A DNA stretch of 21,382 nt, from the IMG/VR virus record IMGVR_UViG_3300023697_000634; one strand, given 5' to 3'. The position numbers and the translations under genes were made by a program. Under the pieces are notes generated by a model. That model searched no databases. It was not told the DNA's origin and saw only the letters and a list, made by a program, of their open reading frames with translations. Source of the stretch: a virus (Duplodnaviria > Heunggongvirae > Uroviricota > Caudoviricetes). This document shows, piece by piece, positions 1,017 through 14,914 of the stretch (position 1 is its first letter; the number at the start of each line of letters is the position of its first letter).

Positions 1017-1202
1017 ATGTCAGATGGTGGTAAGGGGTCTGCACCAAGACCATTTAGCGTTAGCCAACAAGAATGGGATAATCGCTGGGATGCGATCTTC
1101 TCGCGTGATCTTGAAAAGAAACAAGATGCGCAGAAGAAGATTGAAATGCCAGGCACCACAGGTGGTGCAAAGATCGTTTTTCCCGAAGACGAATCCAAGT
1201 AA
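1017..1202 (+). CDS. Small phage hypothetical protein (MSDGGKGSAPRPFS...RWDAIF type)
   Basis: CAGGAG RBS, 61 aa. N-terminus resembles a motif I recall from aquatic phage small proteins. Confidence 0.8.
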   Translation: MSDGGKGSAPRPFSVSQQEWDNRWDAIFSRDLEKKQDAQKKIEMPGTTGGAKIVFPEDESK

Positions 1203-1288: not shown

Positions 1289-1362
1289 GCTCTTGTCGTA
1301 TAGTGACATTACACATCCTTGGTACGGATGTTACACGAGTTTGATTCTCGTCGAGAGCACCA
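1289..1362 (+). tRNA. trnT: tRNA-Thr(GGT)
   Basis: GCTCTTG/CGAGAGC acceptor, CATCC-TT GGT AC-GGATG, T-loop TTTGATT, CCA. D-loop lacks the GG. Confidence 0.88.
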
Positions 1363-1363
1363 G

Positions 1364-1392
1364 TTGTCTGTCGATCTGTTATTTCATATAAT
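1364..1392 (+). promoter_or_regulatory. sigma70-type promoter
   Basis: TTGTCT(1364-1369)-N17-TATAAT(1387-1392). Predicted TSS near 1399. Confidence 0.7.
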
Positions 1393-1411
1393 AGACGAAG
1401 ACGAAAGAATT

Positions 1412-1650
1412 TAGAGTAGATACAGCAAACAAACTAATACATGGAGTAACGTCCATGATACTAAAACCCTACCGTGCCCTGAAAGGGGTGGCCGAAAGGT
1501 TGGAGGGAATGCGTTGGCCTAGTAATAGGTCGACTTTGTAGTCTTGCAAGATCAAGGATCGGGCGCCAACGATTGGCGATAGGGTCATGGAGATAGGGCA
1601 AGTGCCCGAAGTGGATGACCAGAAAATAATTTCTGCTCCCCCTACTCTGT
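1412..1650 (+). ncRNA. Structured RNA / 5' leader upstream of TROVE-like gene
   Basis: Closed by AGAGTAG(1413-1419)/CTACTCT(1642-1648). Contains at least 8 hairpins, three capped by GNRA loops (GAAA 1481, GAAA 1494, GTAA 1522). No ORF. Confidence 0.7.
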
Positions 1651-1658
1651 TGTTTAAA

Positions 1659-1714
1659 AGGTTAAGTTCCGCAACAACAATTTCTATTCATAAAAGAGAA
1701 AAAGTTTAACCTGT
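1659..1714 (+). promoter_or_regulatory. Leader hairpin just before the TROVE-like RBS
   Basis: AGGTTAA(1659-1665)/TTAACCT(1706-1712) stem, asymmetric A/C-rich loop CCGCAACAACAA, inner TTTCT/AGAAA stem. Confidence 0.5.
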
Positions 1715-1735
1715 TGATTGAAAAAGGAGTTCATT

Positions 1736-3169
1736 ATGTCAACATTCGCTGAAGCTGTAGTAAACCAAGAAGCCCGTACCACGAATGGTATGGTGGCACG
1801 CAAGTCCACTGCAAATGCGTGCGTCGATCTATTCTTCAAGATCGGTGCTTCACGTGGTAAGGACATCACGAAGGATTTCGTGGCCGCATACGCTGAGAAC
1901 AAAGATGTCGCGTTGCGCATCGCTCAATGGGTCCGTGACGCTCGTGGTGGCGCTGGTGAACGTGAATTGTTCCGCCAAGTTCTGAAGTATCTCGAAAAGC
2001 ACGATAAGGACGCTGCAGCAGCATTGCTGGCTAAAGTGCCTGAAATCGGTCGCTGGGATGACATCTTCGTCTTCGAAGATAAGGACTTGAAGGCCAAGGC
2101 ATTCACAATGTTGGGTGATGCACTCCGTGCAAAGAATGGTCTCGCTGCGAAGTGGACACCTCGCCAAGGTAAACTCGCTGCCGAAATTCGTACATTCTAT
2201 GGAATGTCGCCAAAGTTCTACCGTAAGTCGTTGGTTGAATTGACCAACGTCGTCGAAACACAAATGTGTGCGAAGGACTGGGATGCAATCAACTTCTCGC
2301 ACGTGCCATCCGTGGCCGCTGCTCGTTACAAGAAAGCATTCAACCGTAACACACAAGAATACGCAAAGTATGTTGCTGAATTGATGAAGGATCCAAAAGA
2401 TCGTACAGTCAAAGTCAAGATCAACGCTGGCGCAGTGTTTCCATACGATGTGTTGAAGGGCGTTATCGGTTCATACCGTAACAACTATTCCGCAGCTGAG
2501 CTCGGTGCGCTGCAAGCGCAATGGGATGCGATGGAAAACTTCATCGGTGATGCAAACGTCTTGCCATTGGTAGACGTTTCTGGTTCGATGTCCTGCCGTG
2601 CTGGTGGTTCTGCTTCGCAGAGCACCACAACGTGTATGGATGTTGCAGTGTCGCTTGGTTTGTACCTCGCTGACAAGAACAAGGGTAAGTTCAAGGACAC
2701 GTTCTTGACGTTCTCGGGTTCGCCAGAATTGCTGAACTTGAAGGGCAACATTGTTCAGAAAGTCCAACAAATGGTTTCTTCCAACTGGGGCATGAACACT
2801 AACTTGGTTGCTGCAATGGATAAGATCCTTGCTACGGCTACTAAGGGTGGCGTTCCACAAGAAGAAATGCCAGACATGCTGCTGATCTTGTCTGACATGC
2901 AATTCGACCAATGCGCTCGTTTCGACGATTCCGCAATGCAAATGATTGCACGTAAGTTTGAAGCAGCAGGATACGAACTTCCAAAGATCGTGTTCTGGAA
3001 TTTGAACTCGCACGATAACGTGCCTGTCAAGTATGACACTCGTGGTGTTGCTTTGGTATCTGGCTTCTCGCCAGCTATCATGACGGCAGTACTCGGTGGT
3101 GATGCTGACAAGTTCACACCAGAAGCAATGATGCTTAAGGCAGTGATGATCGACCGTTACGCGATCTAA
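1736..3169 (+). CDS. TROVE/Ro60-like (DUF2828-type) protein with C-terminal vWA domain
   Basis: AAGGAG RBS before ATG 1736 (477 aa). Helical N-terminus with RDARGGAGER and AAKWTPR, MIDAS motif VDVSGSM, ILSDMQFD, PKIVFWNL. Family called from recalled motifs. Confidence 0.8.
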   Translation: MSTFAEAVVNQEARTTNGMVARKSTANACVDLFFKIGASRGKDITKDFVAAYAENKDVALRIAQWVRDARGGAGERELFRQVLKYLEKHDKDAAAALLAKVPEIGRWDDIFVFEDKDLKAKAFTMLGDALRAKNGLAAKWTPRQGKLAAEIRTFYGMSPKFYRKSLVELTNVVETQMCAKDWDAINFSHVPSVAAARYKKAFNRNTQEYAKYVAELMKDPKDRTVKVKINAGAVFPYDVLKGVIGSYRNNYSAAELGALQAQWDAMENFIGDANVLPLVDVSGSMSCRAGGSASQSTTTCMDVAVSLGLYLADKNKGKFKDTFLTFSGSPELLNLKGNIVQKVQQMVSSNWGMNTNLVAAMDKILATATKGGVPQEEMPDMLLILSDMQFDQCARFDDSAMQMIARKFEAAGYELPKIVFWNLNSHDNVPVKYDTRGVALVSGFSPAIMTAVLGGDADKFTPEAMMLKAVMIDRYAI

Positions 3170-3183
3170 AATATGTAACACCC

Positions 3184-3213
3184 AGCCAAGGCCGTTTTGT
3201 GCCTTGGCTTTTT
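3184..3213 (+). terminator. Rho-independent terminator
   Basis: AGCCAAGGC/GCCTTGGCT stem followed by a T-run. Confidence 0.7.
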
Positions 3214-3227
3214 ACTAGAGGTGTACC

Positions 3228-3698
3228 ATGAAGAAATTAGACCTAGCTGAAGTGAAGAAATTCATCGAAGCGCAATCGCCATCCACAAAGATTTACATCG
3301 GCGCCGACTCAGAGCGCTTTAAAATGGAAGGCAGATGGTATGCTGATTACACACTCGCCGTCGTAATCCACATTGACGGAAACCATGGTTGCAAAATCTT
3401 CGGTGAAGTTCAACGTGAATTAGATTACGACCAAAAGAAGTCTAAGCCAGCAATGCGTTTGATGAATGAAGTCTACAAGGTTTCGGAATTGTTCCAAAAT
3501 CTTGCCGATGTGTTGGAAGATCGTTATGTTGAAGTCCATTTGGACATTAACCCTAACGAAATGTATGGCTCCTCGTGCGTCGTACAACAAGCTATCGGTT
3601 ACATCAAAGGCACGTGTAACGTAACACCGATGGTTAAGCCACGGGCGTTCGCTGCATCATATGCTGCTGACAGACTGAAAGAGGTCCTAGCGGCCTAA
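3228..3698 (+). CDS. RNase H-like protein (DUF458/YkuK type)
   Basis: GAGGT RBS. Motifs IYIGADS, VEVHLDIN and KPRAFAASYAAD carry acidic residues typical of this family. Confidence 0.8.
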   Translation: MKKLDLAEVKKFIEAQSPSTKIYIGADSERFKMEGRWYADYTLAVVIHIDGNHGCKIFGEVQRELDYDQKKSKPAMRLMNEVYKVSELFQNLADVLEDRYVEVHLDINPNEMYGSSCVVQQAIGYIKGTCNVTPMVKPRAFAASYAADRLKEVLAA

Positions 3699-5379: not shown

Positions 5380-5476
5380 ACATTTTATCGTTGCCTTTGC
5401 GACTGCGTTAGTGGATAGTAAACGGTCTACAGCAAGACGATATGTCTCTGGCTGGTATTAATTAAAGGATTTTGTT

Positions 5477-14869: not shown

Positions 14870-14914
14870 GATTACTATCAGTAACAGGCTACGGCAAACC
14901 TGAACAGGAATCAA

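What the first reader, a model, noticed from the sequence alone, without database searches (positions are those of the whole stretch)
1364..1655. Promoter-driven, GNRA-rich ~240-nt structured RNA upstream of the Ro60-like gene
Seen: TTGTCT-N17-TATAAT, then an ORF-free region closed by AGAGTAG/CTACTCT. It contains CATGGA/TCCATG, a multi-way junction with two GAAA-capped hairpins (1467-1507), GGCCTA-GTAA-TAGGTC, CTTTG..GTCT/AGAT..CAAGG, CGCCA/TGGCG, GGTCAT/ATGACC with purine-rich internal loops around GGGC/GCCC (possible tandem G-A, k-turn-like), and CAGAAA/TTTCTG. I do not recognise it as RNase P, tmRNA, SRP, 6S or a known riboswitch. Inference: a new ncRNA, ribozyme-like fold or regulatory leader, and a candidate ligand of the downstream protein.
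Basis: partly seen in the sequence, partly recalled or inferred. Interest (0 to 1): 0.8.

Follow-up and report, generated by a model that had tools for sequence, protein, structure and literature searches.

The report
Pseudoknotted partner RNA of phage Ro60-like protein
The 240-base stretch is a real, conserved, pseudoknotted non-coding RNA, one of a family of "handle" RNAs that travel with a Ro60-like RNA-binding protein gene in many large phages; I found no Rfam family or paper for these RNAs, and they are most likely that protein's partner RNAs.

Summary
Window 1412-1649 is an ORF-poor, strongly folding RNA (z -3.5). It lies after a sigma70-like promoter (1364-1392) and before a gene whose model folds like Ro60.

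It matches no Rfam family. It is not a one-off: its 3' domain occurs in 66 phage loci (49 distinct sequences). In all 64 loci that can be tested it sits on the same strand beside the Ro60-like gene: 61 upstream and 3 downstream, before a terminator.

Covariation supports three elements:
- the closing stem, 1412-1419/1642-1649;
- an inner helix, 1583-1588/1615-1620;
All five pairs form in 30 of 35 distinct sequences, with 17 different 5-mers.

The closing stem plus an adjacent CAGCAA form a "handle". This handle is shared by 437 distinct units of 40-457 nt scattered through these phages' tRNA arrays. They include tRNA-like units and a 54-nt mini-unit (1659-1712) just before the gene's ribosome-binding site.

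Best reading (0.6): a Y-RNA-like partner of the Ro60-like protein. Binding is inferred, not shown.

Earlier notes of this scan report the same protein-handle pairing on other genomes. I confirmed it myself in E. coli phage ekra.

The parts
1364..1392 (+). sigma70-like promoter: TTGTCT (1364-1369), 17-nt spacer, TATAAT (1387-1392). The predicted start is near 1399.
   Evidence: 10 of 12 matches. Equivalent hexamer pairs lie at the same distance from the RNA in L001, L002 and L038. Transcription itself is not shown.
1412..1649 (+). Class I handle RNA: 238 nt from the first to the last base of the closing stem.
1412..1419 (+). P1 5' strand, UAGAGUAG. It pairs with 1642-1649.
   Evidence: 98.5% of cells paired, and 5 of 8 pairs change on both sides; 113 of 119 5' motifs have a perfect 8-bp partner, against 19.8 expected.
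1423..1428 (+). CAGCAA, the conserved single-stranded handle motif, 3 nt after P1.
   Evidence: at least 90% conserved in 437 distinct units, but the scan pattern itself fixed five of the six positions, so only the final A (90%) was free to vary. CAGCA is invariant in the 17-member alignment. The YrlA model places its cggCgaAU stretch on this motif in L042.
1441..1457 (+). Hairpin CAUGGA / UCCAUG. Its GGA/UCC core is conserved within the window's subgroup.
   Evidence: two of the three core pairs change on both sides in one sequence each, L208 and L176.
1467..1534 (+). Variable periphery: a junction with two GAAA-capped hairpins and the GUAA-capped hairpin 1513-1534.
   Evidence: Found only in the window and L001.
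1564..1578 (+). Hairpin Ph: CGCC(A) / (U)GGCG.
   Evidence: 4 of 5 pairs change on both sides.
1580..1582 (+). UAG junction, invariant in the 17 sequences and with three exceptions among the 50, just before helix Pa.
1583..1620 (+). Helix Pa (GGUCAU 1583-1588 with AUGACC 1615-1620). It encloses hairpin 1596-1607.
   Evidence: 100% paired, and 5 of 6 pairs change on both sides.
1589..1592 (+). Pseudoknot strand X (GGAG), inside the Pa loop. It pairs with 1636-1639.
1621..1629 (+). Conserved A-rich linker AGAAAAUAA.
1636..1639 (+). Pseudoknot strand X' (CUCC), 2 nt before the P1 3' strand.
   Evidence: all five pairs form in 30 of 35 distinct sequences, with 17 different 5-mers; cross-paired controls reach 9.6%.
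1642..1649 (+). P1 3' strand, CUACUCUG, followed by the conserved UUG.
1659..1712 (+). Mini-unit with the same handle (AGGUUAA, GUU, CCGCAA ... UUAACCU). It ends 11 nt before the ribosome-binding site.
   Evidence: Such a mini-unit lies before the start codon in most of the loci.
1736..3169 (+). Ro60-like protein gene (DUF2828 + DUF7788/vWA). AAGGAG at 1724-1729 is the ribosome-binding site.
   Evidence: The DxSxS metal-site motif (D280, S282, S284) is invariant in 30 homologues.
3184..3209 (+). Intrinsic-terminator-like hairpin after the gene.

Best explanation
This is a phage Y-RNA-like non-coding RNA. It is co-transcribed with a Ro60-like (DUF2828/vWA) protein gene and most likely binds that protein.

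The proposed protein-recognition element is the shared handle. It consists of an 8-bp terminal stem with a U-G pair at its base (invariant in the class I alignment), a single-stranded CAGCAA three bases after the stem, and a UUG tail.

The rest of the RNA is a class-specific body. Its core is a helix whose loop pairs with the four to five bases lying two bases before the 3' strand of the terminal stem. This packs a pseudoknot against the handle. I infer that this body either docks a second factor or RNA substrate onto the protein ring, or gates the ring, as Y RNAs do for Ro60.

The mini-unit in front of the ribosome-binding site would let the protein also bind its own messenger.

Shown: the RNA family, its structure, the protein's Ro60-like predicted fold, and the linkage between RNA and gene.
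Inferred: binding, processing out of the transcript, and the role of the body.
For: 1. Real structured RNA.
- z -3.54.
- P1, Pa and the pseudoknot all covary. Every slid control is below 50% paired, except +3 for P1 at 65%.
- The pseudoknot is complete in 30 of 35 distinct sequences, against 9.6% of cross-paired controls.

2. Protein.
- AlphaFold model with pLDDT 74.
- Its 13 best PDB matches are all Ro60 structures aligned over the full length: Thermus phage phiLo Ro60 at TM 0.53-0.59, then D. radiodurans Rsr, human and Xenopus Ro60.

3. Linkage.
- The 3' domain was found in 66 loci. In 64 of 64 testable loci it is on the same strand beside the gene: 61 upstream (18-1051 nt) and 3 downstream, two of which I inspected and which end in a terminator.
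- Of 38 virus records with an exact 5' motif, 27 hold the gene, and all 27 have a unit with a paired 3' strand.
- Seven of the 11 records without the gene are chance matches. The other four are fragments 9-62% complete.
- All 6 records at least 90% complete that have a genuine unit also have the gene. The linked proteins go down to 43% identity.

4. The same CAGCAA handle flanks the 39%-identical gene of E. coli phage ekra and the 47%-identical gene of Synechococcus phage BUCT-ZZ01.

5. Sibling units carry tRNA-like arms. One matches Rfam YrlA at 31 bits, E 8e-5.

6. Precedent.
- phiLo Ro60 binds two Y-like RNAs encoded just upstream of its gene (PMC12135203).
- In YrlA a short conserved motif near the 5' end is the proposed Rsr site, and Ro60 mainly contacts the 5' strand (PMC4201824).
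Against: - No binding or expression data exist for this RNA.
- The handle lacks the GNCGAA(N)G motif of bacterial Y RNAs.
- The window RNA has no tRNA-like arms and does not hit YrlA.
- Handle units are spread over up to 13 kb of tRNA array. The handle could therefore serve the tRNA operon rather than the protein.
- Co-occurrence across related phages is partly shared ancestry.
- KVP40, Cronobacter phage S13 and Aeh1 have the protein but no recognisable unit directly upstream of it.
Confidence: 0.6

Rival explanations
1. The handle is punctuation for the tRNA operon: a processing or stability signal read by a host or phage ribonuclease. The bodies are stable by-product RNAs or decoys whose function has nothing to do with the Ro60-like protein.
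For: - Units start 4-11 nt after a tRNA and end 8-16 nt before the next one in L085.
- All 8 motif hits of a 235-kb genome lie inside its 40-tRNA array.
- Phage T4 also keeps stable RNAs of unknown role (rnaC, rnaD) at the end of its tRNA cluster.
Against: - The class I RNA follows the gene, not the tRNAs. It sits beside the gene in 64 of 64 loci, even when it has moved downstream of it.
- A mini-unit sits in the gene's own leader.
- The motif co-occurs with the gene in all 6 near-complete (at least 90%) genomes that hold a genuine unit.
- A processing signal alone would not explain the conserved single-stranded CAGCAA across proteins as low as 39% identical.
Confidence: 0.2
2. It is a cis-acting leader, either a riboswitch or a protein-binding operator, that controls translation or transcription of the Ro60-like gene.
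For: - In the window there is no terminator between the promoter, the RNA and the gene.
- In 61 of 64 loci the RNA is upstream of the gene.
- The pseudoknot plus A-rich strand is a common riboswitch architecture (my own knowledge).
Against: - In L132 and L139 the RNA lies 326-335 nt downstream of the gene, just before a terminator; in L176 it lies 224 nt downstream (its 3' flank was not examined).
- A separate mini-unit, not this RNA, abuts the ribosome-binding site.
- No element of the RNA overlaps the ribosome-binding site or a terminator.
Confidence: 0.1
3. It is a self-cleaving or otherwise catalytic RNA.
For: Only the complex fold with a pseudoknot and the setting in a polycistronic RNA operon.
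Against: No match to any ribozyme family in Rfam, even at E up to 10. No conserved candidate cleavage site was identified.
Confidence: 0.03

Closest known systems
Bacterial and phage Y RNAs bound by Ro60/Rsr: YrlA (Rfam RF02553; Chen et al. 2014, PMC4201824) and Yrl1/Yrl2 of Thermus phage phiLo (PMC12135203)
   Same: - Encoded beside, and on the same strand as, a ring-shaped Ro60-type protein with a vWA domain.
- The 5' and 3' ends form a stem, with a short conserved motif next to its 5' strand.
- Several different RNAs per genome share that element.
- Sibling units carry tRNA-like T and D arms in YrlA order.
   Different: - The protein is the DUF2828/DUF7788 branch, not Pfam TROVE.
- The motif is CAGCAA, not GNCGAA(N)G.
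- The window RNA is 238 nt, against 80-130 nt for characterised Y RNAs.
- It has no tRNA-like domain; instead it has a covarying pseudoknot packed against the terminal stem.
- It gives no YrlA hit.
Class I RNAs of dictyostelid social amoebae (Rfam RF01414; Kjellin et al. 2021, PMC7919456)
   Same: - A short covarying stem joins the two ends.
- A conserved motif containing ACAGCAA lies next to the 5' strand.
- The interior is variable and the 3' end reads CUG.
- The Rfam model aligns end to end on mini-units and partially on window 1421-1472.
   Different: - Scores of 16-24 bits are far below the gathering score of 41.5.
- The window RNA is four times longer.
- Class I RNAs are eukaryotic, have their own promoters, and the published protein partner is an RRM protein.
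- Homology is not established.
Phage T4 stable RNAs rnaC and rnaD (species 1 and 2)
   Same: Stable, structured RNAs of unknown function encoded at the end of a T4-type phage tRNA cluster.
   Different: No handle, no CAGCAA motif and no visible sequence similarity. T4 has no adjacent Ro60-like gene in the stretch examined.
GOLLD and ROOL, large ornate RNAs often found near tRNA genes in phages (PMC12286853)
   Same: Complex phage-borne non-coding RNAs associated with tRNA genes.
   Different: They are much larger and have Rfam models; I take it that these are in the copy searched. Nothing beyond tRNA reached a gathering score in the window.

Membership tests
YrlA / bacterial Y RNA (RF02553) | Reaches the Rfam gathering score of 69 bits | tested here: not met
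   No YrlA hit on window 1300-1760 even at E up to 10. A sibling unit, L042 2705-2813, reaches 31.2 bits.
YrlA / bacterial Y RNA (RF02553) | Encoded next to a Ro60/Rsr orthologue | tested here: met
   The gene at 1736-3169 has a Ro60-like fold. RNA and gene are adjacent in 64 of 64 testable loci.
YrlA / bacterial Y RNA (RF02553) | GNCGAA(N0-1)G motif near the 5' end (PMC4201824) | tested here: not met
   The conserved motif is CAGCAA. GNCGAA-like strings at 1394-1407 and 1493-1500 are not conserved in L001 or L002.
YrlA / bacterial Y RNA (RF02553) | tRNA-like T and D arms | tested here: not met
   No tRNA or YrlA signal inside 1412-1649. Such arms are present in sibling units.
YrlA / bacterial Y RNA (RF02553) | Physical binding to the Ro60 protein | not testable with these tools
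   Needs EMSA, co-purification or a protein-RNA structure.
Dictyostelium Class I RNA (RF01414) | Reaches the Rfam gathering score of 41.5 bits | tested here: not met
   17.0 bits, with only model positions 9-48 aligned, on window 1421-1472. Mini-units score 16-24 bits.
Dictyostelium Class I RNA (RF01414) | Short terminal stem plus an adjacent conserved 11-nt motif, in an RNA of 42-65 nt (PMC7919456) | tested here: inconclusive
   The stem and an ACAGCAA core are present. The length is 238 nt here and 50-65 nt in mini-units. Only part of the 11-nt motif is shared.
Ro60 / TROVE protein family (the neighbouring gene) | Pfam TROVE domain hit | tested here: not met
   Only DUF2828 and DUF7788 are hit. 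No PDB match by sequence.
Ro60 / TROVE protein family (the neighbouring gene) | Helical-repeat domain plus vWA domain with a DxSxS metal site, folding like Ro60 | tested here: met
   The 13 best Foldseek matches are all Ro60 structures, probability 1.0, TM up to 0.59. D280, S282 and S284 are invariant. The model is of moderate confidence (pLDDT 74).
Known riboswitch or self-cleaving ribozyme classes | Match to any Rfam model of these classes | tested here: not met

The most novel reading that the evidence does not exclude
The DUF2828-type Ro60-like proteins and CAGCAA-handle RNAs form a large ribonucleoprotein class for which I found no published description, spread across phages of many bacterial phyla. 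In this reading the handle is the protein's docking site, and interchangeable bodies (tRNA mimics, or this pseudoknotted class I body) each present a different RNA or factor to the ring during infection. The handle would then be evolutionarily related to the orphan Class I RNAs of social amoebae, which would give those RNAs a first testable mechanism.
Probability: 0.15. Interest if true: 0.9.

Novelty: new variant of a known kind. Interest (0 to 1): 0.72.

Why it matters
Ro60 with Y RNAs is a classic RNA-surveillance particle, but its bacterial and phage forms are known from few cases. Here a distinct protein branch, listed as "domain of unknown function" in Pfam and found in 707 of 50,697 phage records, comes with its own RNA family. 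I found no Rfam entry and no paper for these RNAs.

The window RNA is the most elaborate member I saw, and its pseudoknot is backed by strong covariation. The same handle occurs in E. coli K-12 phages of the Felix O1 type. Binding, processing and phenotype can therefore be tested with standard phage genetics.

If the pairing is real, it bears on three questions:
- what large phages do with their tRNA arrays;
- how they manage RNA damage or host RNA-targeting defences;
- whether the amoebal Class I RNAs have a related mechanism.

Tried and rejected
- Rfam at gathering and at E up to 10 gave only tRNAs and noise for the RNA.
- blastn of the RNA against 50,697 phage records found nothing. Against E. 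coli genomes it also found nothing, so no detectable copy of an rRNA or tRNA segment.
- No whole genome is held for the window.
- T4 rnaC and rnaD have no handle.
- KVP40, Cronobacter phage S13 and Aeh1 have no recognisable unit directly upstream of their homologues.
- The hairpin CAGAAA/UUUCUG, and a CAG/CUG pairing between the handle motif and the 3' strand, are not kept in relatives (by eye).
- The YrlA model pairs CAGCAA with the UUGUUU tail. I regard this as forced by the model, because it competes with P1.
- The 40-aa frame 1587-1709 is rejected as a gene, because its start codon is absent from most family members.
- A relaxed scan of the window (7-bp stem plus NNGCAA) gives many chance hits on both strands. 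It is not specific.
- The loose 3' pattern scan of IMG/VR returned mostly chance matches. They had to be filtered with the profile.
- Complex prediction was not used, because it does not take RNA chains.

Full report
**Setting**

The window is part of a T4-like phage. It encodes a family B DNA polymerase, a UvsX-like recombinase and a DnaB-type helicase. It opens with the tail of a tRNA array: seven tRNAs between 403 and 1362.

The finding lies between the last tRNA and a 477-aa gene at 1736-3169. That gene matches Pfam DUF2828 plus DUF7788 and PHROG 850, "RNA-binding protein". It matches no NCBIfam model and no solved structure by sequence.

**The observation**

- The RNA strand folds at -83.6 kcal/mol, against -66.2 +/- 4.9 for dinucleotide shuffles (z -3.54).
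- Rfam gives nothing but tRNAs at gathering thresholds.
- In a sensitive scan of 1300-1760, the only non-tRNA match on the RNA's own strand (E up to 10) is 17 bits to the Dictyostelium Class I RNA model.
- blastn finds no related DNA in 50,697 phage records.

**Relatives**

The protein has close relatives in IMG/VR. Eighty loci were kept, at 67-94% identity. By sequence, the RNA is recognisable along most of its length only in L001, L002 and L007.

Profile searches showed that its two ends recur upstream of the gene in many loci. Two motifs emerged:
- a 5' motif, UUUAGG-nnnn-nUu-CAGCAA;
- a 3' motif ending nnnn-CCUG-UUG.

The nnnn parts are complementary to each other.

Across 68 non-redundant upstream regions, 113 of 119 5' motifs have a perfect 8-bp partner 30-420 nt downstream. 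Shuffled 5' strands give 19.8. Twenty-five different stem sequences occur. Over all loci fetched I counted 437 distinct units in 168 loci, with a median length of 94 nt and a range of 40-457 nt.

I call the shared stem plus CAGCAA the handle. The window has two units:
- the 238-nt RNA of the finding, 1412-1649;
- a 54-nt mini-unit, 1659-1712, which ends 11 nt before the AAGGAG ribosome-binding site.

**The class I family**

The window RNA belongs to one class of units, defined by a conserved 3' domain. Seventeen distinct members were aligned first (A3 and A4). A covariance model of the 3' domain then aligned 50 matches (A5). nhmmer finds the domain in 66 loci, giving 49 distinct sequences.

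| Helix | Window coordinates | Support |
|---|---|---|
| P1 | 1412-1419 / 1642-1649 | 98.5% paired; 5 of 8 pairs change on both sides |
| Pa | 1583-1588 / 1615-1620 | 100% paired; 5 of 6 pairs covary |
| Pseudoknot | 1589-1592 / 1636-1639 | all five pairs form in 30 of 35 distinct sequences; 17 different 5-mers |

- The pseudoknot pairs the bases just after the 5' strand of Pa with the bases two positions before the 3' strand of P1.
- On the raw alignment it is 84% paired, because one subgroup is offset by one column.
- When that offset is allowed, the 30-of-35 figure results. Cross-paired controls reach all five pairs in 9.6% of cases.
- Controls with the 3' partner slid by 1-3 columns are all below 50% paired for Pa and the pseudoknot.
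- A UAG before Pa is invariant in the 17 sequences (three exceptions among the 50 aligned), and an A-rich linker, AGAAAAUAA, is also conserved.
- The middle of the RNA is variable. The hairpin at 1441-1457 and the hairpin at 1564-1578 are kept, with compensatory changes, in the window's subgroup.

**Promoter**

The number of promoter-like sites in the region is what chance gives. However, where a class I unit follows a tRNA or a tRNA-like unit (window, L001, L002, L038), a TTGnnn-N17-TATAnT pair lies at the same distance from the unit although the spacers differ. Where the unit follows another unit directly, there is no such pair.

I take the promoter as likely. There is no terminator before the gene, and one follows it at 3184-3209.

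**Linkage to the gene**

Of the 66 loci with the class I domain:
- 61 have it upstream of the Ro60-like gene on the same strand, 18-1051 nt away and mostly about 80 nt;
- 3 have it 224-335 nt downstream;
- 2 are cut by the end of the locus.

In L132 and L139 the order is: mini-unit, gene, another unit, class I unit, intrinsic terminator. The RNA therefore stays in the gene's transcription unit but is not tied to its 5' end. This argues against a purely cis-regulatory leader.

**The handle beyond the gene**

In three phage genomes the strict 5' motif occurs 6-8 times on one strand. The reverse strand and the backwards control give 0-1 hits. In the closest relative all 8 hits, and in the other two all but one hit each, lie within a 5-15 kb stretch that ends at or just upstream of the gene; in the closest relative (L085) this stretch is a 13.6-kb array of 40 tRNAs.

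In L085 I found ten paired units wedged between tRNAs. Most start 4-11 nt after one tRNA, and several end 8-16 nt before the next. Several carry T-arm-like hairpins.

One unit in L042 matches Rfam YrlA over the full model at 31 bits, E 8e-5 in a 571-nt search. It has the T and D arms in YrlA order, and the model's 5' cggCgaAU lies on the handle's CAGCAAAU.

**Co-occurrence**

- An exact 14-base version of the 5' motif was scanned over IMG/VR.
- Of 38 longer records, 27 hold the gene, and all 27 have a unit with a proper paired 3' strand.
- Of the 11 records without the gene, 7 have no such partner and are chance matches. The other 4 are fragments 9-62% complete.
- All 6 records at least 90% complete that hold a genuine unit also hold the gene. 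The linked proteins go down to 43% identity and include 350-kb and 424-kb phages.
- Synechococcus phage BUCT-ZZ01 (47% identity) has three units upstream of its gene.
- E. coli phage ekra (Felixounavirus, 39% identity) has four units in the tRNA array just downstream of its gene. They share an AGACC...GGUCU stem plus CAGCAA, and one has a T-arm.
- KVP40, Cronobacter phage S13 and Aeh1 have the gene without a recognisable unit directly upstream.

**The protein**

An AlphaFold model built from 30 homologues has pLDDT 74 and pTM 0.67. Its 13 best PDB matches are all Ro60 structures aligned over the full length:
- Thermus phage phiLo Ro60 (9KOP, 9L5Y; TM 0.53-0.59);
- D. radiodurans Rsr;
- human and Xenopus Ro60.

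vWA/MIDAS domains follow lower in the list. D280, S282 and S284 are invariant.

**Literature**

- phiLo Ro60 binds two Y-like RNAs encoded just upstream of its gene (PMC12135203).
- In YrlA a short conserved motif near the 5' end is the proposed Rsr site, and Ro60 mainly contacts the 5' strand (PMC4201824).
- In a P100-like Listeria phage, a protein whose best HHpred match is Rsr lies within 2 kb of three very abundant RNAs that the authors suggest may be Y RNAs (PMC12282133). Listeria phages of that group are among the tblastn hits of the window protein.
- Class I RNAs of dictyostelids are defined by a short covarying terminal stem, an adjacent conserved 11-nt motif and a variable interior, and were reported as unique to that group (PMC7919456). 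The Rfam model of that family aligns end to end on mini-units at 16-24 bits, well below its threshold. I treat this as a resemblance only.
- I found no paper describing the handle RNAs.

**Conclusion**

The most economical reading is a Y-RNA-like partner of the Ro60-like protein: the handle is the common docking element and the pseudoknotted domain is a class-specific body.

The main rival is that the handle serves tRNA-operon processing. A cis-leader role fits the window itself but not the loci where the RNA lies downstream of the gene.

Earlier notes of this scan describe the same protein-handle pairing on other genomes. I verified the Felix O1-type case and partly tested the Class I resemblance myself.

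Noticed in passing
window 1659-1712: A 54-nt mini-unit with the same handle (AGGUUAA, GUU, CCGCAA ... UUAACCU) ends 11 nt before the ribosome-binding site of the Ro60-like gene. Similar mini-units precede the gene in most related loci, sometimes abutting or overlapping the ribosome-binding site (L037, L077). It may be an autoregulatory operator.
   Followed up: partly
window 3228-3698: A DUF458/PF04308 RNase H-like gene follows the Ro60-like gene. A homologue lies within about 4.5 kb of the gene in 36 of 80 related loci, on either side of it, and directly after the gene in KVP40. It is a candidate nuclease partner.
   Followed up: partly
window 5424-5440 and 14884-14903: Two tiny hairpins carry an ACAGCAA- or ACGGCAA-type loop in mRNA leaders. 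The second, CAGG...CCUG, lies just after a TATAAATA late-promoter-like box. They could be minimal handles or chance.
   Followed up: no
window 1394-1407: GACGAAG and ACGAAAG in tandem, right after the -10 box, match the GNCGAA(N)G motif of bacterial Y RNAs. They are not conserved in L001 or L002 and are probably chance.
   Followed up: yes
L005 2454-2744, L010 2466-2756, L035 2225-2482, L065 2549-2779: A second large unit class (stem UGGGAUGA / UCAUCCCG, 210-280 nt) shares the handle. It seems to have an analogous helix-plus-GGG/CCC arrangement at its 3' end.
   Followed up: no
L038 1356-1470; L085 units at 1193, 5838, 6056, 6385 and 8599: Handle units whose bodies contain T-arm-like hairpins (GGUUCGAnUCC type). 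Some also have further tRNA-like parts. These are tRNA mimics inside the tRNA array.
   Followed up: partly
L044 2780-2850 and relatives (L062, L038, L064): In one class I subgroup the variable middle is a row of short hairpins with UAGAAUA-type loops, each followed by AUAG. The loops could be T-loop-like modules.
   Followed up: no
L313 (E. coli phage ekra) 5219-5285, 5387-5483, 5865-5935, 5956-6079: Four units with an AGACC...GGUCU stem plus CAGCAA lie in the tRNA array next to the DUF2828 gene of a phage that grows on E. coli K-12 MG1655. This is a tractable model system.
   Followed up: partly
window 1017-1202: A 61-aa ORF with a good ribosome-binding site lies between tRNA genes inside the array.
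   Followed up: no
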